In this document: positions 3,666 to 35,305 of the stretch, piece by piece
Layout: each line of letters starts with the position of its first letter
Position numbering within the stretch: position 1 is the stretch's first letter
Assembly: GCA_000004985.1 (NCBI GenBank)
Contig: GG738868.1
From: Naegleria gruberi
Lineage: Eukaryota
DNA: 64,000 nucleotides
Reading direction: 5' to 3' (one strand)
The notes under the pieces: generated by a model
Database searches by the model: none
Seen by the model: only the letters and a program-made list of their open reading frames with translations
Told to the model about the DNA's origin: nothing
Made by a program: the position numbers and the translations under genes

Positions 3666-5104
3666 ATGGGTAACGCACCGAGTGGAGGACAACAACCTTT
3701 CCAACTTCCTGGCGCTGGAAAAAAGCAGAATAAGGACGATAAGAAAAAGAAGAAGGAAAAGAAAAAGTTTGAACAACCAGTACCAACCCGTATTGGCAGA
3801 AAAAAGAGGAAAAAGGGTCCACAAATTGCTGAAAAGCTTCCAGAAGTTACACCAGTCTCAAAATGTAAACTTAGAATACTACGATTGGAAAGAGTTAAAG
3901 ACTATCTTACAATGGAAAAAGAATTTGTTACTAATCAAACAAAACTTTTGACTGCCCAAGAAAAGAGCAAGGATATGGAAGAGGAACGTAACATGGTCGA
4001 TGAATTAAGAGGATCACCAATGGCTGTAGGAACTCTTGAAGAAATTATTGATGATAACCATGCTATTGTTTCTAGCAGTGTTGGTCCTGAATTCTATGTT
4101 TCAATCCTTTCAATTGTTGATAAGGATCAATTGGAACCTGGTTGTAGTATTTTAATGCACAATAGATATTTGGCTGTTGTTGGTATTCTTCAAGATGAAG
4201 CCGATCCAATGGTCTCTGTCATGAAAGTCGATAAGGCTCCTCTCGAATCATATTCACAAATTGGTGGTTTGGAAGATCAAATCCAAGAAATCAAGGAAGC
4301 TGTCGAATTCCCATTAACACATCCAGAACTTTATGAAGATATTGGTATTAAACCACCAAAAGGTGTTATACTTTATGGTGAACCAGGTACAGGAAAGGTA
4401 TGTAGTAATTATTTATACAACAATGTATTAATCATCATCATTATACTTATATTATTGAATATGTATAATCATATTAGACACTTCTTGCCAAAGCTGTAGC
4501 CCATCACACCAGTGCTACTTTCTTGCGTGTTGTTGGTTCCGAACTCATTCAAAAGTATCTTGGTGAAGGTCCAAAACTTGTTCGTGAATTGTTTAGAGTT
4601 GCTGAAGAATTGGCTCCAAGTATTGTATTTATAGACGAAATTGATGCTATTGGTACAAAGAGATTTGATTCAACATCAGGAGGTGAACGTGAAATTCAAA
4701 GAACTATGCTTGAATTGCTTAACCAATTGGACGGTTTCGATTCCAGGGGTGACGTTAAGGTTATCATGGCCACTAACAGAATTGATTCTCTTGATACTGC
4801 TTTGATTAGACCTGGTAGAATTGATCGTAAGATTAAATTCCCATTCCCAGATGTTAAGACAAAGAGAAAGATCTTTGAAATTCACACTCGTAAGATGAGT
4901 AAGGCTACTGATGTAAATTTGGATGAATTTATTTCCTCAAAGGATGAATTGTCTGGTGCTGACATTAAAGCTATTTGTACAGAAGCAGGTTTGTTGGCTC
5001 TCAGAGAACGTAGACTCCAAGTTACTCAAACAGACTTTACAAAGGCCAAGGAAAAGGTTTTGTACAAAAAGCAACAAGGTATTCCAGAAGGTCTTTACAT
5101 TTAA
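3666..5104 (+). CDS. RPT2: 26S proteasome regulatory ATPase subunit Rpt2 (PSMC1/S4), N-myristoylated. join(3666..4397,4478..5104).
   Basis: 'MGNAPSGG…[15 protein letters not shown]…[24 protein letters not shown]…GEPGTGK|[44 protein letters not shown]…[35 protein letters not shown]…' is near-identical to PSMC1 along its length. One 80-nt GTATGT..TAG intron splits the Walker A codon block in phase 0. Confidence 0.92.
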
Positions 5105-27339: not shown

Positions 27340-28184
27340 AGATTATTCTGGGATGAACACAAAAAACGAGTAAAGCATGTTAATGGTGGAAGATTGATGA
27401 TGGAAATGGCTTTATATAATAAGGATGAGGTATTAAGCCATTTTTTGATATTGTTCAACAGTAATAGTTTTCTCTCGTTTATCGGAGCCGGACAGATATT
27501 AATGTCATTGAATTTTATTAAGGATTCCCACATGAAAACACTAACTCATGTTAATTGCTGACTGCTGACGAATATATCAGCAGGTTCCATCATCACATGG
27601 ACATTCACATAAGAACATGTCGTATTAATTGATGATACAACCAGTGAAGTGTTATGGTTGTTAGACGTAAAAAAGATTAACATAGAAAATTCATCTTCTT
27701 TATCTTCTAATTGAATTCATTCTTTGAATATTATTCATATTGGTTTGTTGTATTCTTTGCATGGTCTGATTATGTGTACGAATATTATTCATATGAGTTC
27801 TATGATTACTTTCATTGGTTCTTCTGATGGTTTCATTGGTTCTCCTGATAGTTTCTTGGGTTATTTAATTACTTTGAGAGAACAGCCAAGTCACAAAGCA
27901 TGGACACAACAAACCAGGTGCTTTTGGAACTTGTGACACTATTCATCAAACTTTAATTTGAGTGAGTTACTAAACTTTATCTTCACATTTATCGGAAACA
28001 GTGCAACCAACCAAACAATTGGATTTGTGCAAGTATTGTAAAGTGCGTATCCAAAACCAAGTTGACCAATAGAAGGACAACCAGGTTCTTCCGATGTTAC
28101 AATCACTAGTTTTGAAGATTACATTTCGCGACTCATAAATCGCCTTCAAAGCTGAATAAGGGAAAATTGTTTCTTTCAAAAAAA

Positions 28185-30077
28185 ATGTCTTCACTGCATA
28201 CTACTAAGAAGGAAACCAAACCAACAAGAAGACCTCTATCTTCAGCAGCTAAGAGATTACTTGAAGATTTGAAACAATTAAATCGTCAAAGTGAGCTCAA
28301 ATACATATCTGCTCAACCACTGTCTAATAATTTATTTGAATGGCATTGTAATCTGTATGGAAATGAAGAATCCATGTATAAGGAGTGTTGTTATCATTTC
28401 ATTATCAAGTTTCCAAAAGATTATCCTCACAATCCACCACAAATTGAAGCATGTTCTGATTTGTTACATCCACAAGTTTACAATAGAAAAGTATGCTTGG
28501 AATTGACTCAACAGAAGGAAGGCACCGAAGAGAATGCAGATGGATGGAGTTGTTCATATACTGTATTTTCAATTCTAATGCAATTGCAATCTTTCTTATT
28601 CGATTCCAAGGTCTCTAATAGACCAATGATTAAAATTGAGCAAAAAGATGCATACAATGTAAAATGCAGCAAATGTGGGCATGTACCAAGAGATGGTAAC
28701 ATATTTCCATATCATGAAATGAATTCCATTTGTTTCTCAGAGTTAAAAAAGGAATTGAGGAATTCTAGACCATCTAAATCAAGTAATAGGAAAAAGGAGA
28801 GAAGTAATATTGTAATTATTGAAAATGAAGAAGATATTGAAAAGATGTACTCAAATCAATCAGGACAATCCACTAGTTCTGTTCCAATCAAGAATGGAAA
28901 TACAATTTCCAAACAAGTACTTTTTCACATTTTCAAATTCTTGGAAAAATCAGAATTGGATTCGACCATGTTTAAAGTTTGCAAGGAATGGAAGGAAATT
29001 TCTCAACATCCTCTCTTTGGTAATAGAGAAAGAATTTGTTACTTTACAAAACAACCATGCAGAGATGAAGAAACCATTTTAGGATATGGTGTCGAACCAA
29101 AGTTTACAAAAACTGGAAGATTGATTAATATTGATTCACCTTATGAATATCTATCTTTTCATTCGTTTAGAAATTTGAACGTGAGAACTAGTGTTTGGAA
29201 TATTTCCTTCCAAAATTGGATTCCAATTCCAGTATTTACAATTCAAATTGGAAATGAATTGAAAAATGTGGAAGAATATTTGTTTAACCTATTTAAGGAT
29301 TGTGTATCAGAAATATATTACTTTCTTCAAAGTGATTCAACAGTTGAATTTCAATCTCTTGATTTGTTAGGTAAAATGATGAACTCTATAATTATTAACA
29401 TTCTCAGAAATCAAAGTCATGCATCTGTCAAAGCACTTGATGCCTACATCAATTTACACAGATGGTTAATTATGTTATGTGAAAAGTATCCAAATGTACT
29501 TTTACTCATTGATGAGAAAATTGAAAAATTCATCCAAGATGAAGAATTTAGAAGTAAGGAACATGTCCCTGCCCTTGGAGAATTCCTCTGCTTACTCTCA
29601 GTTTCAGAAAAGTTCACTTGGGATGAGATGGCACCTGCTATTATTAAGGAATCTCTTGATAGAGGAAGTTTGTGGGGTGTCTTTTCAAATGAAAAATTGA
29701 AAGATGTGATTGAATATCATTTGGAGGAAGATAAGGAAAGAGAACGAATGATTAATACATTCGAGGCAACAAAATCTAATCTGCATAATTTAGCTTTCCA
29801 TAGTTTCCTAATTAGATATTTCAGAATGAAAACTAGAGTTGAAACTGCTGAATATTATGATAGAAATTACTTGACTCCATATATTGTAAATTCAAATGAG
29901 AAGGATCAAGAGAGATTGAGAAGTGCTCTTGTGGAAATTCAATCCAAGATTATTAACTATTATGAATTCTTCAAATATGTTCAAAATGTTGAATTGGATG
30001 AGATTTCAATCATGTTAAAATTAAGAGTTGCCATGAAGAATATGAAAAGAAGAGGATATTATGAAGAAAATAAATAG
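28185..30077 (+). CDS. Ubiquitin-conjugating (UBC/E2) domain protein with a C-terminal extension that contains an F-box-like motif (630 aa).
   Basis: The E2 core is '…AAKRLLEDLKQL…LFEWHCNLYGNEESMYKECCYHFIIKFPKDYPHNPPQIEACSDLLHPQVYNRKVCLEL…WSCSYTVFSILMQLQSFL' (HPN-like loop, active-site Cys, conserved Trp). An F-box-like 'QVLFHIFKFLEKSELDSTMFKVCKEWKEISQHPLF' follows. The true ATG is at 28185. The track start at 28167 is TTG. Confidence 0.65.
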   Translation: MSSLHTTKKETKPTRRPLSSAAKRLLEDLKQLNRQSELKYISAQPLSNNLFEWHCNLYGNEESMYKECCYHFIIKFPKDYPHNPPQIEACSDLLHPQVYNRKVCLELTQQKEGTEENADGWSCSYTVFSILMQLQSFLFDSKVSNRPMIKIEQKDAYNVKCSKCGHVPRDGNIFPYHEMNSICFSELKKELRNSRPSKSSNRKKERSNIVIIENEEDIEKMYSNQSGQSTSSVPIKNGNTISKQVLFHIFKFLEKSELDSTMFKVCKEWKEISQHPLFGNRERICYFTKQPCRDEETILGYGVEPKFTKTGRLINIDSPYEYLSFHSFRNLNVRTSVWNISFQNWIPIPVFTIQIGNELKNVEEYLFNLFKDCVSEIYYFLQSDSTVEFQSLDLLGKMMNSIIINILRNQSHASVKALDAYINLHRWLIMLCEKYPNVLLLIDEKIEKFIQDEEFRSKEHVPALGEFLCLLSVSEKFTWDEMAPAIIKESLDRGSLWGVFSNEKLKDVIEYHLEEDKERERMINTFEATKSNLHNLAFHSFLIRYFRMKTRVETAEYYDRNYLTPYIVNSNEKDQERLRSALVEIQSKIINYYEFFKYVQNVELDEISIMLKLRVAMKNMKRRGYYEENK

Positions 30078-30117
30078 TTGCCTAGTCAACCATACGGTTT
30101 ATTGACATTTGAGGCTC

Positions 30118-31392
30118 CTAATCTACTAATCCTTCAAATTCTCTCTTATCTTTCACTTTAAAGTATGAATAGAGATAGGTTCCAACTACTGTAAATGCAG
30201 AAGACAATAATCCATAAGTAGAAACATGAGTATTGTGAACTGCAAATGATAAAAATGATTCCACAACAGATTTCATTGAAATAGTGACAGAAGTAGTCAA
30301 TGGAGAGGTATAACTAATTAACATGAAATTAGAAATATTGACAACGTATGCTATTAGGGCTGTTGTTGTGAGAATTGCTAAAAACTTTGGTTCAAATAAA
30401 TAATTAACAGAAATTGCCTTTTCAAATTCTCCTGTAAAATAGCAAACAGGGAATAAAAACAAAATGGCACAAACAACGTTATAAATTAGAATAATCCAAT
30501 GATTTCTGTGTGAGGAGGACATTAATTTCTTTAAATAAATTGAATAAAGTGCCATAAAGCAACTGGACATCAATCCAAAAGCAAATCCAATCGACTGCAT
30601 TTTAGAAAGTTGTAATTCTTCAAATCCAGTCATGAAATATCCAATAGCAATCATTAAACATGCTCCAATAATTCTCTTCTGAACTTTTTCTCCCAATAAA
30701 ACTGATGTGAAAATCACCGTGAAACAAATACTAATACTTCTTGCAGTGTGATAGGTGTGAATATCTGCATAATCCAAACACAAATTATTAAAAGTAACCA
30801 TTCCAACATAACACAATGATACAGGAGCTATTTGTACTGCTGTATCAAATTTAAATTCAAAATCTGGTAAGAAACTAAAACAAGTTCTAATTAAATGATT
30901 AGTTTTTTTCAATTTGAATAAATCAATTACCAACCTATTTAAATTATAAGTACAAATAATACACAACAATGAGACAATCAAATGAAACCAAGCCATAGTT
31001 AATGGAAAATGAAATGAATATTCACCCATATCCATCAAGTATTTTGTCAAAAAGACAGATAGAATTGAAGTTACTGAAAAGAAAGAAATGGCCATTCCAA
31101 TTTGTCTTTTTTAAAACATGGGATTAATACCATTTCAACAAATGATGACTTACAAATTTGATGCTTCTTTCCGCAGCAAATGTTGGTGATGAGTGTTTAA
31201 TCTTGCAGAAGTAGGTGATATTGGTTTAAATTCTGTGTTATCCTCCGAATGTGGTGAGTGTTGTCTGTTATTGATTCCTAGTGTTGGTGGCGAGTGGATG
31301 GGTACTTGTTCCTCATCGTCGTCTTGTCTAAGTTTTGTTCTCACCACAAGATTTGGTCCCGAGAGAGAATTGTCATGATGAAGTGAAGACAT
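30118..31392 (-). CDS. SLC35/TPT-family nucleotide-sugar (GDP-fucose-type) transporter with a His/Pro-rich N-terminal extension. complement(join(30118..31105,31154..31392)).
   Basis: The 10-TM body (…FHLIVSLLCIICTYNLNRLV…VGMVTFNNLCLDYADIHTYHTARSISICFTVIF…) is typical of SLC35C/TPT transporters. Upstream exon 1 'MSSLHHDNSLSGPNLVVRTKLRQDDDEEQVP…LLRKEASN' joins through a 48-nt GTAAGT..AAAAAAG intron in phase 2 to 'LQIGMAISFF…'. Starting instead at the internal Met (31095) is also possible. Confidence 0.55.
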
Positions 31393-31484: not shown

Positions 31485-34070
31485 TTAATTACGATGTTGT
31501 GGTGCTGTAGTATGGAAGAGACTGGATTGTTGTTGCTGTTGTTGGTAGGAAGGTCCAATTGTCAAATCAGAGGAAAAAAGTGAGCTATTGGAATTACTGA
31601 AAGGTGTTTGAACAAAATCACGTCTCATCGGTTGTGGAGGAGTAACTGGATTTTGGTGAGCATAAGTTTGTTGGTTTGGCCATTGTTGATACTGTTGAGG
31701 ATACATTGGTTGTTGCATCATAAATCCATTATTAGTATTCATTCTTGGTTGAGGTGAGAAACTATTCATATTGTTCATTCCATTAATACCACCCATATTA
31801 TTCATGTTATTCATGTTGTTCATGGTATTCATATTATTCATACCACCACCAATATTATTATTCATCCAATTCCATTGATTAGATTGTCCAAATAAGTTAA
31901 AATGTGAATTGACGTTTTGGTTATTTGAAAATCCAATACCATGACCACCAGCAAAATAATTACTGTGAGGTTGAGAAATGTGTTGAGGTTGTTGAGCCAT
32001 AAATGGTTCTGAATATTGATTCTGGTTAAAGGCATTATTGAAGGCATTATTAACATGTCCAGGTAAGAATTGATTAAATTGGAATGCGTTATTCATTGGT
32101 TGCCAATTACTATTAAATCCATTGTTTTGTTGATTTGGAGGGGATGGAGATTTTCCAGTAGGGGTTGGTTGCACAATTGGATCATTGTTATTCACAATTT
32201 GATCCTGATGGTTCAAAGGATTATGGATTGGTTGTGGTGAGGTCATCATTGTATTGTTGGTTGAGGTGTTTCCTGACGACATTGTATCATTGGAAGAAAC
32301 ATCTGTTTCAGTACTTTGATTTGAGGTAACCGAGTTATTACTTGGTATTGGAGGAGGTTCAACAACAGTTGATGGCTTTACCGTGATTGTCCTTGGTTTC
32401 TTTTCGTTAATGGTCGGTTTGGCTTGATATCTCGGAAATTGCTCAGGAGTAATCTTTACATCACTCATATCATTTTCGAATAGCACTTGAGTAATTTCTT
32501 GTTCATTCTCTGGCTCCTCTTCATAAGATGAATCTTGATCTTGTTTCACCTCTTCAACTTGCTTTTGGGCAGAGGCTTCCTTCTTTTTCTGCTTTTCCTT
32601 CTTTACAATTTCTATCATTTCCTTTTCTATCTTTTTCCTTTCCTCTTCCATTTTCTTTTGCTTTTCAAGTTCTTGTTTCTTTTTTTCTTGCTCTTTCTTT
32701 TTCTTTAACTTCTTTTCTGACTTTTCCTTTTCACTCATCTCTTCCTCTTCAATAAGCTTGGCCTGCATATCTAAAGCTTGTTTTTCTTTGAAAGCAGTCA
32801 AAATATTCTCATAAAAGGATTTAGCAGCAAACCAATGAAAGACTCTTCTACTTTCTCTCCATTTAATATAAGAATCTTCAGGATTTTCACTTTCTATCTC
32901 AGAATCCTCGTCCACGTCCTCTTCATCATCACTCTCCTCACCTGATATTTCATGGTCAGTATCTTCATCCTCGGAACATTGATCATCATCGTCCTCGTCA
33001 TTGTCGTCTTCATATTCATCATCCTCTGAATTATTATTATTATTATTTTTCTTATCCTTGTTCAATATTAAATTTTCCAAATTATTGTGTTTGATATTAT
33101 GTTCAAATTTTTGTAATAAATGGATAATATCGTTGGATTCGTTTTGCTTTATCCAATCCTCGGAGATTGTTATGATACCTTCTCGACTGATCGAAAGATT
33201 CTTTCCAAAGTCATACTGAACACTATCTTCTTGACTATCTTCAGGTTGAATAGGTGGAGGTGGTGGTAAATGCTGATTATTTTGTTGTGAACCGTTTTTC
33301 GAATCTATTGGTTCGGTGTTTGAACCATTAGTTTGACTCTGTTTAGAAATAGCCTTTTCTCTATTATCCTCTGTGATATCTTCAATAATAGGACTACTTG
33401 CTTTGTCATTTGGATTTACTTTTGTTGTAGAATAGTATTTTACAGTTTTTTCAATAACTCGTACGTTACCACTTTTCTTTACGGTTGTTGTGGTTAACAT
33501 TTCAGTTCCATTGCTGATGACGGTTCTCTTAGTTGTTTTTGGACTTCGTGAGTTGTTGCGAAGTTTAGATCTGTCTGATGAGTTGGAGGTGCTACAAAAA
33601 TTGAATACACAATCAACATGATTCTGATATGCAAGTTCTTTGCAGTAATCAGTAAAAAGTCTATCCAATTCTCTATCAAGAATAGATTTGTTTCTACCAC
33701 AAACAGTGCACGAACACACTCTTTGATATTGTTCCTTTGTCTTTTTTAGCAATGAACAGGCATCAACATGAAGAAGTTTTTTCCTTGTGCCAAAGTTTAA
33801 TGTTCTCCAAAAATCATTTAGAGTAGTGATTTGTGATTCAAGAGTTGTTGATCGTTTGACAGTCTGTGGTTGCGGAGCAGAAGATTTTTCGCTCTTGGAC
33901 TGACTTTTAGATGTACTCTTTTTCTTACTATTAGAACTCTGTGATGATGAAAATAATGATGATGTAAAATATTTATAAATTTTGTTGTTGTTGTTAGTTA
34001 GAGAGAAAAGGAGGCATTATAATAATGAGTAACTGCATGGTACGGAATTCTCTTACCTTTTTAGAGGGCA
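31485..34070 (-). CDS. Large Q/N-rich low-complexity protein (about 822 aa) with a Cys-rich N-terminal motif (VCSCTVCGRNK) and a central K/E coiled-coil. complement(join(31485..33938,34056..34070)).
   Basis: A 15-nt first exon ATGCCCTCTAAAAAG with a GTAAGA donor, a 117-nt intron ending CATCACAG, then an open frame 'SSNSKKKSTSKSQ…LLHVDACSLLKKTKEQYQRVCSCTVCGRNKSILDRELDRLF…' running into the track ORF, which starts at a TTG. No family is recognised. Confidence 0.45.
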
Positions 34071-34345: not shown

Positions 34346-35305
34346 ATGAGTACACCATCATGGAAACGTAAAGACAATACATACTGTAAGTATTGTCAGC
34401 AGTGGATTCGTGATACACCCTCCGAAAAAAGAAACCATGAAAGATCTAAACATCACGTAATTAATGTACAAAAACATATCAATAATCAACAAATTTCGGA
34501 AAGAAATAAACAAAAGGAAGAACAACGAAATCGGAAAATAGTGGATAACATTGAAAGGAAAGTACAATCGGGTTCTAATGGTGAAAATCAATATTATCAA
34601 GCCTTTTTAAAACATCAACAAGAAATGGATAAACTTCCTTCTGTTGTTATGGAGAATGTTTTTAATAGTTTTACAAATCAACAACAAGCAGATGATACTC
34701 CCCATCCTCCTAAAGAACCTCAACAAGATGATGTAATACAAGAGCCAGAGCAGTCTGACTCTTTTGAATGTAATGACCTACCTCTAGGAGCGATTGTCAA
34801 ATCTATCAAACCAGTGGAAACACATGTAGCACCAAAGACAAGTGCTCCTAAAAAAAAGACATATACTGAACCAACTGAGATTGGAAGTTATTATGACGAC
34901 CCAAATTTCTTTTACTATGAGCAAGAGGAAGAAAAAGAGGAGAAAGAAAAAGTAGAGGAGCAACCAATTGAGGAAGTGATAAGGAAGGAGAAACCAAAAT
35001 CAGACTGGAAAAATCAATATTCGAATGCTACTACAGCTTCAGCAAATACTTTTGGTCAATGGGAAATTGTTCAAGTATCCAAGATTGAAGCAGATGCTCC
35101 TTCTGAAAGTAATTCATCTGCCTCCTCCACCAAAACTCACCAAAACAAAGACGAACACGAAGAGGATCAATTTGGAGGAAGTTACAACATACCAGAAACA
35201 AAGAAGAGAAAGAATGAAACAATTGAGGAGTCTTCTAAAAAGGTGAAGAGCGAGGATAATGCACCACGTAAACCTCTTTCTTTTTCACTTGCAAAAAAGA
35301 AGTAA
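34346..35305 (+). CDS. U1-type (matrin-like) C2H2 zinc-finger protein, WBP4/FBP21-like at the N-terminus.
   Basis: 'MSTPSWKRKDNTYCKYCQQWIRDTPSEKRNHERSKHHVINVQKHI' matches the WBP4 N-terminus (M..YWK…YCDYCK.WIADN…HE.G..HK.NV.K.I). The remainder is low-complexity and acidic. Confidence 0.5.
   Translation: MSTPSWKRKDNTYCKYCQQWIRDTPSEKRNHERSKHHVINVQKHINNQQISERNKQKEEQRNRKIVDNIERKVQSGSNGENQYYQAFLKHQQEMDKLPSVVMENVFNSFTNQQQADDTPHPPKEPQQDDVIQEPEQSDSFECNDLPLGAIVKSIKPVETHVAPKTSAPKKKTYTEPTEIGSYYDDPNFFYYEQEEEKEEKEKVEEQPIEEVIRKEKPKSDWKNQYSNATTASANTFGQWEIVQVSKIEADAPSESNSSASSTKTHQNKDEHEEDQFGGSYNIPETKKRKNETIEESSKKVKSEDNAPRKPLSFSLAKKK

What the first reader, a model, noticed from the sequence alone, without database searches (positions are those of the whole stretch)
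28185..30077. Ubiquitin-conjugating E2 domain fused to an F-box-like motif in one 630-aa polypeptide
The N-terminal 150 aa form a recognisable UBC fold. It has the HPN-type loop (HPQVY), the active-site Cys (KVCLEL) and the downstream Trp, with an acidic insertion. About 100 aa later comes a sequence with the spacing of an F-box (VLFHIFKFLEKSELDSTMFKVCKEWKEISQHPLF), then about 380 aa of unassigned helical sequence. F-boxes normally recruit substrates to SCF E3s through Skp1. An E2 carrying its own F-box would be a self-contained E2 that docks on Skp1/cullin, an uncommon E2/E3-hybrid arrangement.
Basis: partly seen in the sequence, partly recalled or inferred. Interest (0 to 1): 0.6.

Follow-up and report, generated by a model that had tools for sequence, protein, structure and literature searches.

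The report
E2 enzyme fused to F-box and UBR4-like module
This Naegleria gruberi gene encodes one protein that joins a ubiquitin-conjugating (E2) domain, an F-box, and a C-terminal domain predicted to fold like the E2-binding catalytic module of the giant ligase UBR4, and it belongs to a large protist and fern family I found no description of.

Summary
Window 28185-30077 (+) is one intact 630-aa ORF in Naegleria gruberi nuclear DNA.

- **F-box.** The motif at 241-276 is below Pfam's cut-off here (17.2 against 24.3 bits). It is homologous to a clear F-box in relatives, including a paralogue in the same genome (40.9 bits).
- **Family.** The order UBC, CxxCxH, variable insert, F-box, UBR4-like module recurs in roughly a thousand 50%-identity clusters (only the top 150 checked), in Discoba, Amoebozoa, alveolates, stramenopiles and a fern. 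Relatives carry extra SPRY, S1, TerD, VWA or LRR domains.

My best reading is a single-chain E2-E3 ligase that can also dock on Skp1. Catalysis, zinc binding and Skp1 binding are inferred, not shown. This copy departs from several residues the family conserves.

The parts
28185..30077 (+). Complete ORF of 630 aa plus TAG stop. It is a single exon as read, and it aligns end to end with family members.
28242..28634 (+). UBC (E2) core domain, residues 20-150.
28467..28475 (+). HPQ, in place of the canonical HPN triad, residues 95-97. At the Asn position the family has N in 61, H in 29 and Q in only 2 of 104 sequences.
28494..28496 (+). Codon of the catalytic Cys104, which is Cys in 95 of 97 aligned relatives.
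28506..28541 (+). Acidic loop insertion TQQKEGTEENAD between the active-site Cys and Trp121. It aligns with the Ubc7 acidic loop.
28665..28682 (+). CSKCGH, the conserved CxxCxH element just after the UBC core (C161 in 89, C164 in 85, H166 in 90 of 104). It is a candidate zinc knuckle and is modelled with pLDDT of about 95.
28710..28904 (+). Linker rich in Ser, Glu, Asn and Lys, residues 176-240, mostly low pLDDT (<50 over 199-214 and 221-239; a helix at 180-193 is modelled more confidently). It occupies the position where relatives carry inserts, which are 10-1209 aa long (median 164).
28905..29012 (+). F-box-like motif ISKQVLFHIFKFLEKSELDSTMFKVCKEWKEISQHP, residues 241-276. The model gives three short helices at 243-250, 255-262 and 267-273.
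   Evidence: Pfam 17.2 bits, sub-threshold; family-column HMM 21.1 bits against 8.9 for shuffles; homologous columns are a clear F-box in relatives; the family profile hits PDB F-boxes; helices
29037..29240 (+). Beta-rich subdomain, residues 285-352, starting at the family-invariant Cys285 (104 of 104). It corresponds in position to the hemiRING part of the UBR4 module.
29241..30050 (+). Helical bundle, residues 353-622, resembling the UZI subdomain of UBR4. Family-invariant residues are W479, E489, R493 and W497.

Best explanation
The gene encodes a minimal member of a widespread, unnamed eukaryotic family of single-chain E2-E3 hybrid ubiquitin ligases. The parts come in a fixed order: a catalytic UBC domain (Cys104), a CxxCxH element, a variable linker or insert, an F-box, and a C-terminal module of about 345 aa that folds like the hemiRING-UZI E3 module of UBR4.

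Proposed mechanism:
1. E1 loads ubiquitin onto Cys104.
2. The C-terminal UBR4-like module holds and tunes the protein's own E2~Ub in cis. This would parallel what UBR4's module does in trans for UBE2A/B.
3. The F-box attaches the enzyme to Skp1, and possibly through Skp1 to Cul1-Rbx1.
4. In larger relatives, added SPRY, S1, TerD, VWA, LRR or CCCH domains select substrates. This copy has only a disordered linker, so it must use partners or the C-terminal module for targeting.

Shown here: the domain identities, their order, and their conservation. Inferred: thioester formation, cis activation, zinc binding and Skp1 binding.
For: - **F-box.** Relatives pass Pfam's thresholds: P0001 38.7 bits, the N. 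gruberi paralogue P0052 40.9 and 30.3 bits, and 22 of 52 sampled relatives. The family profile's best PDB sequence hits are true Skp1-binding F-boxes: FBXW7 at E 0.0027, then KDM2A/B, FBXW8 and SKP2. The window segment scores 21.1 bits against the family F-box columns, against 8.9 or less for 2000 shuffles. The model gives three helices.
- **E2 relationships.** The family's UBC profile scores UBE2B/UBE2A, the E2s UBR4 uses, highest in PDB (122 bits). This is essentially tied with UBE2D1 at 121.5 bits.
- **Fixed order.** The domain order is the same in all 104 aligned relatives, with inserts of 10-1209 aa.
- **Breadth.** Members occur in Naegleria, Protostelium, Chattonella, Polarella, Amoebophrya and the fern Adiantum.
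Against: - No biochemical data exist for any member that I could find.
- The UBR4 zinc ligands (CxxC ... HxxC) are not reproduced. Only Cys285 is invariant in the beta subdomain, and the CxxCxH lies about 120 residues upstream. The N. gruberi paralogue lacks the CxxC.
- I could not read the model coordinates, so cis docking of the UBC on the module and clustering of the Cys and His residues are both untested.
- This copy departs from residues the family conserves: N97Q in HPN, H354Q, H626Y, G563L, and LP to IS at the start of the F-box. It may be catalytically weakened or unable to bind Skp1.
Confidence: 0.55

Rival explanations
1. This is a degenerate paralogue. The family is an active E2-E3 ligase, but this copy has drifted into a weakened or non-catalytic regulator, for example a decoy or scaffold. 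It would have poor isopeptide-forming activity and no Skp1 binding.
For: - HPN Asn is replaced by Gln, which occurs in only 2 of 104 relatives.
- The family's near-invariant H354, H626, G563, F542 and L535 are all changed here.
- The F-box Leu-Pro reads Ile-Ser, and Pfam scores the F-box below threshold.
- A second paralogue in the same genome has a textbook F-box.
Against: - The ORF is intact over 630 aa and aligns end to end with relatives.
- Cys104, C161, C164, H166, C285, W479, E489, R493 and W497 are all retained.
- The family itself tolerates His at the Asn position in 29 of 104 members, so that position is flexible.
Confidence: 0.2
2. The F-box-like helices are not a Skp1 adaptor. Instead they are an integral N-terminal part of the UBR4-like module, comparable to UBR4's unresolved 4730-4830 region that raises E2 affinity. 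The protein would then be an SCF-independent E2-E3 hybrid.
For: - The motif always sits directly before the invariant Cys285, usually at a spacing of about 36-40 aa.
- UBR4 needs about 100 residues upstream of its hemiRING for tight UBE2A binding, a 75-fold effect (PMC10873205).
- F-box proteins that work outside SCF complexes are known (background knowledge).
Against: - Many members exceed the curated Pfam F-box and F-box-like cut-offs.
- The family profile's best PDB matches are F-boxes crystallised with Skp1.
- The family consensus keeps the Leu-Pro start and the hydrophobic pattern typical of Skp1-contacting F-boxes.
Confidence: 0.15
3. The resemblance to UBR4 comes from convergence or from a modelling artefact. 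The C-terminal domain would then be an unrelated substrate- or partner-binding domain of an otherwise ordinary F-box protein that happens to carry an E2.
For: - Identity is only 11%, with no HMM-level similarity.
- Only one model was made.
- The zinc ligand pattern differs from UBR4's.
Against: - The next non-E2 hit is UBR1, the known structural relative of UBR4's module.
- The model confidence is high in this region, with pLDDT mostly 85-98.
Confidence: 0.1

Closest known systems
UBR4 hemiRING-UZI E3 module (human UBR4 residues 4831-5183, PDB 8BTL; Barnsby-Greer et al. 2024, PMC10873205)
   Same: - Both have a small beta/zinc-type subdomain packed on a helical bundle at the very C-terminus of the protein.
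- In UBR4 this module binds and mildly activates a Rad6-type E2.
- UBE2A/B are among the best sequence matches of this family's own E2 domain.
   Different: - There is no detectable sequence similarity.
- UBR4's C2HC ligands (C4838, C4841, H4887, C4890) are not matched. Here there is one invariant Cys (285) plus an upstream CxxCxH.
- The module sits in a 630-aa protein joined to its own E2 and an F-box, rather than in a 574-kDa protein with a UBR box.
E2/E3 hybrid enzymes UBE2O and BIRC6
   Same: A UBC domain is embedded in a larger chain that supplies its own targeting or activating regions, so that one polypeptide can act as both E2 and E3.
Canonical F-box proteins of SCF ligases (FBXW7, SKP2, KDM2A/B)
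   Same: The family's motif of about 40 residues matches the F-box and F-box-like profiles and these PDB F-boxes.
   Different: The domain that follows is not a WD40, LRR or other substrate receptor but an E3-module-like fold, and the protein carries a catalytic E2. In this copy the Leu-Pro start is lost and the Pfam score is below threshold.
Acidic-loop E2s (Ubc7/UBE2G, Cdc34/UBE2R)
   Same: There is an acidic insertion between the active-site Cys and the conserved Trp, and it aligns with the Ubc7 loop.
   Different: The family-wide UBC profile is no closer to Ubc7 or Cdc34 than to Rad6 or UbcH5. The loop here is shorter, with 17 residues from Cys to Trp against 21 in Ubc7.
SCF-ARIH1 E3-E3 super-assembly (PMC7904520)
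   Same: This is a functional analogy only: a second catalytic ubiquitin carrier working at the substrate-receptor end of an SCF complex.
   Different: ARIH1 is a separate RBR protein recruited through neddylated cullin. Here the extra catalytic unit would be part of the F-box protein itself. This was not tested.

Membership tests
UBC / E2 ubiquitin-conjugating enzymes (Pfam PF00179) | Profile match above the curated threshold | tested here: met
   79.7 bits against a cut-off of 27, E=2e-22, residues 24-147
UBC / E2 ubiquitin-conjugating enzymes (Pfam PF00179) | Catalytic cysteine at the conserved position | tested here: met
   Cys104 aligns with the active-site Cys of Ubc7 and Rad6. It is Cys in 95 of 97 relatives.
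UBC / E2 ubiquitin-conjugating enzymes (Pfam PF00179) | HPN triad upstream of the Cys | tested here: not met
   The triad reads H95-P96-Q97. At this position the family has N in 61, H in 29 and Q in 2 sequences.
UBC / E2 ubiquitin-conjugating enzymes (Pfam PF00179) | UBC alpha/beta fold | tested here: met
   [not shown]
UBC / E2 ubiquitin-conjugating enzymes (Pfam PF00179) | Forms a ubiquitin thioester with E1 | not testable with these tools
   This needs an in-vitro charging assay.
F-box (Pfam PF00646 / PF12937) | Profile match above the curated threshold in this protein | tested here: not met
   F-box-like scores 17.2 bits against a cut-off of 24.3. PF00646 is not reported.
F-box (Pfam PF00646 / PF12937) | Homology of the segment to an F-box that does pass the threshold in relatives | tested here: met
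   The same alignment columns score 38.7 bits in P0001 and 40.9 and 30.3 bits in the N. gruberi paralogue. The family-column HMM gives 21.1 bits against 8.9 for shuffles. The family profile hits PDB F-boxes.
F-box (Pfam PF00646 / PF12937) | Three-helix F-box structure | tested here: inconclusive
   [not shown]
F-box (Pfam PF00646 / PF12937) | Leu-Pro start and Skp1-contact pattern | tested here: not met
   The window has Ile241-Ser242, where the family has L in 61 and P in 61 of 104. The downstream hydrophobic positions I249, F250, L253, L258, V265 and W269 are kept.
F-box (Pfam PF00646 / PF12937) | Binds Skp1 | not testable with these tools
   No multimer prediction or binding assay was available.
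UBR4-type hemiRING-UZI E3 module | Fold match to the solved module (8BTL chain A) | tested here: met
   [not shown]
UBR4-type hemiRING-UZI E3 module | C2HC zinc site (CxxC ... HxxC) in the hemiRING | tested here: inconclusive
   There is no CxxC or HxxC within residues 285-352. The conserved candidates are C161, C164, H166 and C285, plus H287 in 69 of 104 relatives. Isolated beta-bridges at residues 167, 172, 284 and 291 hint that these are close in space. Coordinates could not be read. The paralogue lacks the CxxC.
UBR4-type hemiRING-UZI E3 module | Sequence-level membership (Pfam PF13764 E3_UbLigase_R4) | tested here: not met
   It is not reported at E up to 1 or up to 10 for the protein or for 13 relatives.
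UBR4-type hemiRING-UZI E3 module | Binds and activates an E2~Ub | not testable with these tools
   This needs superposition on 8BTL chains A and C, or biochemistry.
UBE2O / BIRC6 E2-E3 hybrids | Shared non-UBC regions (CR1-3 in UBE2O, BIR in BIRC6) | tested here: not met
   [not shown]

The most novel reading that the evidence does not exclude
An ancient family, possibly dating to the last eukaryotic common ancestor, in which the UBR4-type hemiRING/UZI module grips its own covalently attached Rad6-like E2 while an F-box plugs this charged E2-E3 unit into Skp1-Cul1. In these organisms some SCF substrate receptors would themselves be ubiquitin-loaded enzymes. That amounts to a built-in E3-E3 super-assembly. 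It would also make the UBR4 catalytic module a mobile, independently evolving E3 domain rather than a feature peculiar to one giant protein.
Probability: 0.3. Interest if true: 0.8.

Novelty: new variant of a known kind. Interest (0 to 1): 0.66.

Why it matters
- **UBR4 module outside UBR4.** The UBR4 E3 module was described only in 2024, as an unprecedented fold with no close structural relatives. Finding the same fold at the end of about a thousand small protist and fern proteins, each joined to an E2 and an F-box, would show that the module is old and portable.
- **A tractable model system.** A protein of about 70 kDa with the E2 tethered in cis would be much easier to study than the 574-kDa UBR4 for working out how hemiRING/UZI activates an E2.
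- **A new ligase architecture.** E2, Skp1 adaptor and E3 module in one chain blurs the E2/E3/SCF division. Targeting domains (SPRY, S1, TerD, VWA, LRR, CCCH) are swapped in and out across the family.
- **Annotation.** Family members whose source names I looked up are labelled only "UBC core domain-containing protein", "ubiquitin-protein ligase" or "hypothetical".

Tried and rejected
- **First AF2 run.** Using only 4 sequences gave pLDDT 42 and was unusable. It was replaced by a 52-sequence run.
- **Libraries and coordinates.** The AFDB50 fold library was not available. Model coordinates cannot be read in the sandbox. I therefore could not measure Cys/His distances or superpose the model on the UBE2A-UBR4 complex.
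- **Word-indexed homologue searches.** These found few relatives: 4, 3 and 11. The exhaustive profile search was needed.
- **Exact-sequence look-ups.** Look-ups of this ORF found nothing. The organism was identified through a neighbouring ORF instead. A contig look-up of that neighbour also found nothing.
- **Sequence links to UBR4.** None was found. Pfam PF13764 is absent even at E up to 10, and the family profile against PDB shows no 8BTL hit at E up to 10.
- **Literature.** Searches for an E2-F-box fusion, for hemiRING outside UBR4, and in the Toxoplasma and Dictyostelium F-box inventories returned nothing relevant. Burroughs et al. 2008, on the E2 fold, which might mention such fusions, is not held.
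- **UEV-like pseudo-E2: rejected.** The Cys is conserved.
- **UBE2O/BIRC6 membership: rejected.** Only the UBC core matches.
- **Rad6-specific origin of the E2: not claimed.** UBE2B/A and UBE2D1 score within 1 bit of each other.

Full report
**Observation**

Window 28185-30077 (+) is a single uninterrupted ORF. The ORF opens at TTG 28167, the first ATG is at 28185, and the TAG stop is at 30075-30077, giving 630 aa. The window is eukaryotic nuclear DNA with about 32% GC and dense long ORFs. Its genes include Vps34-type PI3K, Gaa1, NXF1, FtsH, the PP2A-A subunit and Myb. It comes from Naegleria gruberi: the ORF at 34346-35302 is identical to XP_002677139.1, NAEGRDRAFT_49162.

**The E2 domain is real**

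Pfam UQ_con matches residues 24-147 at 79.7 bits against a cut-off of 27 (E 2e-22). The best PDB sequence matches are Ubc7, a Naegleria fowleri E2, and Rad6/UBE2A/B, at about 1e-15.

Across 104 relatives the Cys is kept in 95 of 97 aligned sequences. The HPN Asn position is N in 61, H in 29 and Q in only 2. The family is therefore not UEV-like, but this copy's Gln is unusual.

**The F-box is real at family level and degenerate in this copy**

Pfam F-box-like scores residues 245-276 at 17.2 bits (E 0.0044), below the 24.3 cut-off. The same alignment columns do pass the curated thresholds in relatives:
- P0001 scores 38.7 bits.
- The N. gruberi paralogue P0052 (XP_002671639.1, NAEGRDRAFT_59412) scores 40.9 bits for F-box-like and 30.3 bits for F-box. 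It aligns with the window protein end to end at 29% identity.
- Of 52 sampled relatives, 22 match F-box-like and 15 match F-box.

A profile of the family's F-box plus C-terminal region finds FBXW7 (E 0.0027), KDM2A/B, FBXW8 and SKP2 F-boxes as its best PDB sequence matches. An HMM of the family's F-box columns, built without the window protein, scores residues 241-276 at 21.1 bits. The best of 2000 shuffles scores 8.9 bits. The structure model places three short helices there.

In this copy the family's Leu-Pro start is Ile-Ser. Skp1 binding is therefore plausible for the family but uncertain for this protein.

**The C-terminal domain resembles the UBR4 E3 module**

Pfam finds nothing in residues 285-630. 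A first AF2 model from 4 sequences was useless (pLDDT 42). A model built from 52 family sequences reached pLDDT 81.8 and pTM 0.79. It shows a beta subdomain at about 285-352 followed by about 13 helices up to residue 622.

There are three caveats. This is one predicted model. There is no sequence-level similarity: PF13764 is absent even at E up to 10, and the family profile gives no 8BTL hit. The zinc ligands also differ. UBR4 uses C4838, C4841, H4887 and C4890. This family has one invariant Cys (C285, 104 of 104) at the start of the beta subdomain, plus a conserved CxxCxH (C161, C164, H166; 85-90 of 104) directly after the UBC core.

Isolated beta-bridges at residues 167, 172, 284 and 291 in the model hint that these two segments touch. 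That would give a C2HC set. I could not read the coordinates, and the paralogue lacks the CxxC. Zinc binding remains an untested idea.

**The family**

An exhaustive profile search of 1.84 billion cluster representatives gave 1013 proteins at E<1e-30. Only the top 150 were inspected. Among the 152 proteins then held (that top 150 plus two earlier hits), 134 have the UBC domain and 149 have the C-terminal domain.

The order UBC, CxxCxH, insert, F-box, C-terminal module is the same in all 104 aligned sequences. The insert ranges from 10 to 1209 aa, with a median of 164. Extra domains include SPRY, S1, LRR, CCCH and RRM; SPRY and S1 lie in the insert in the members whose domain positions I checked. 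VWA occurs at the N-terminus and TerD at the C-terminus in the members where I saw their positions (domain list). The window protein has only an 83-residue gap between the CxxCxH and the F-box, mostly a low-confidence linker, so it is a minimal member.

Named members come from Naegleria gruberi, Protostelium nocturnum, Chattonella subsalsa, Polarella glacialis, Amoebophrya and the fern Adiantum capillus-veneris. They are labelled only "UBC core domain-containing protein", "ubiquitin-protein ligase" or "hypothetical". The family UBC profile scores UBE2B/UBE2A best in PDB (122 bits). These are the E2s that UBR4 uses, but UBE2D1 is within 1 bit, so this is suggestive only.

**Mechanism**

My best explanation, at confidence 0.55, is a single-chain E2-E3 ligase.
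1. E1 charges Cys104.
2. The UBR4-like module holds and tunes the protein's own E2~Ub in cis. UBR4's module does this in trans for UBE2A, through hemiRING binding and a UZI loop.
3. The F-box docks the enzyme on Skp1.
4. Accessory domains in larger relatives choose substrates.

Domain identity, order and conservation are shown here. Catalysis, cis activation, zinc binding and Skp1 binding are inferred.

The rivals are:
- This copy is a degenerate paralogue. It carries N97Q, H354Q, H626Y, G563L and LP to IS.
- The F-box-like helices are part of the E3 module rather than a Skp1 adaptor. UBR4 has an N-terminal E2-affinity region in the equivalent position.
- The UBR4 resemblance is convergence or a modelling artefact.

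**Novelty**

I found no paper describing an E2-F-box fusion or a hemiRING/UZI module outside UBR4. Burroughs et al. 2008, on the E2 fold, is not held, so an earlier mention of E2-F-box architectures cannot be excluded.

Every part is a known kind of domain. What is new is the combination, and the recognition of the UBR4-type module within it. I therefore rate it a new variant of a known kind, with interest 0.66.

Noticed in passing
window 34346-35305 (+), and the window as a whole: The window is Naegleria gruberi nuclear DNA. This ORF is identical to XP_002677139.1 (NAEGRDRAFT_49162), a U1-type zinc-finger protein. Nine other simple ORF translations from the window, including the E2/F-box ORF, are not in the 15-billion-protein collection as exact sequences. 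The public gene models here must differ (introns or different starts), or some genes are not annotated.
   Followed up: partly
window 30075-30120: The E2/F-box ORF (stop codon ending at 30077) and the convergent TPT-family sugar-phosphate/nucleotide-sugar transporter ORF on the minus strand (ending at 30118) are only about 40 bp apart at their 3' ends. Their transcripts probably overlap or share a very tight terminator region.
   Followed up: no
window 31485-33752 (-): A 755-aa ORF has an NST1-like N-terminal match (PF13945, 30.7 bits). It also has a Glu/Lys-rich coiled region and a long Asn/Gln/Met-rich low-complexity tail that looks prion-like.
   Followed up: no
P0052 (N. gruberi XP_002671639.1) compared with window residues 161-166: The same-genome paralogue keeps His166 and Cys285 but has lost both cysteines of the CxxCxH element. 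It has a canonical F-box and His at the HPN Asn position. The two paralogues have therefore degenerated in complementary places.
   Followed up: partly
relatives P0134 (Adiantum) and P0019 (Protostelium), residues about 860-1020: A TerD domain, known from bacterial tellurite and stress resistance, is appended after the UBR4-like module in a fern member and an amoebozoan member of the family. Five of 52 sampled members carry TerD.
   Followed up: no
window 3666-4499 (+): A 277-aa ORF holds only the OB domain of a proteasomal ATPase (PF16450). The AAA part must lie in another exon, which shows that some genes in this window do contain introns.
   Followed up: no
window 27340-28184: About 850 bp upstream of the ORF contains only short ORFs of 66-74 aa on both strands. 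One of them, at 27970-28194 (-), overlaps the start codon. I did not test whether any is a real gene or exon.
   Followed up: no
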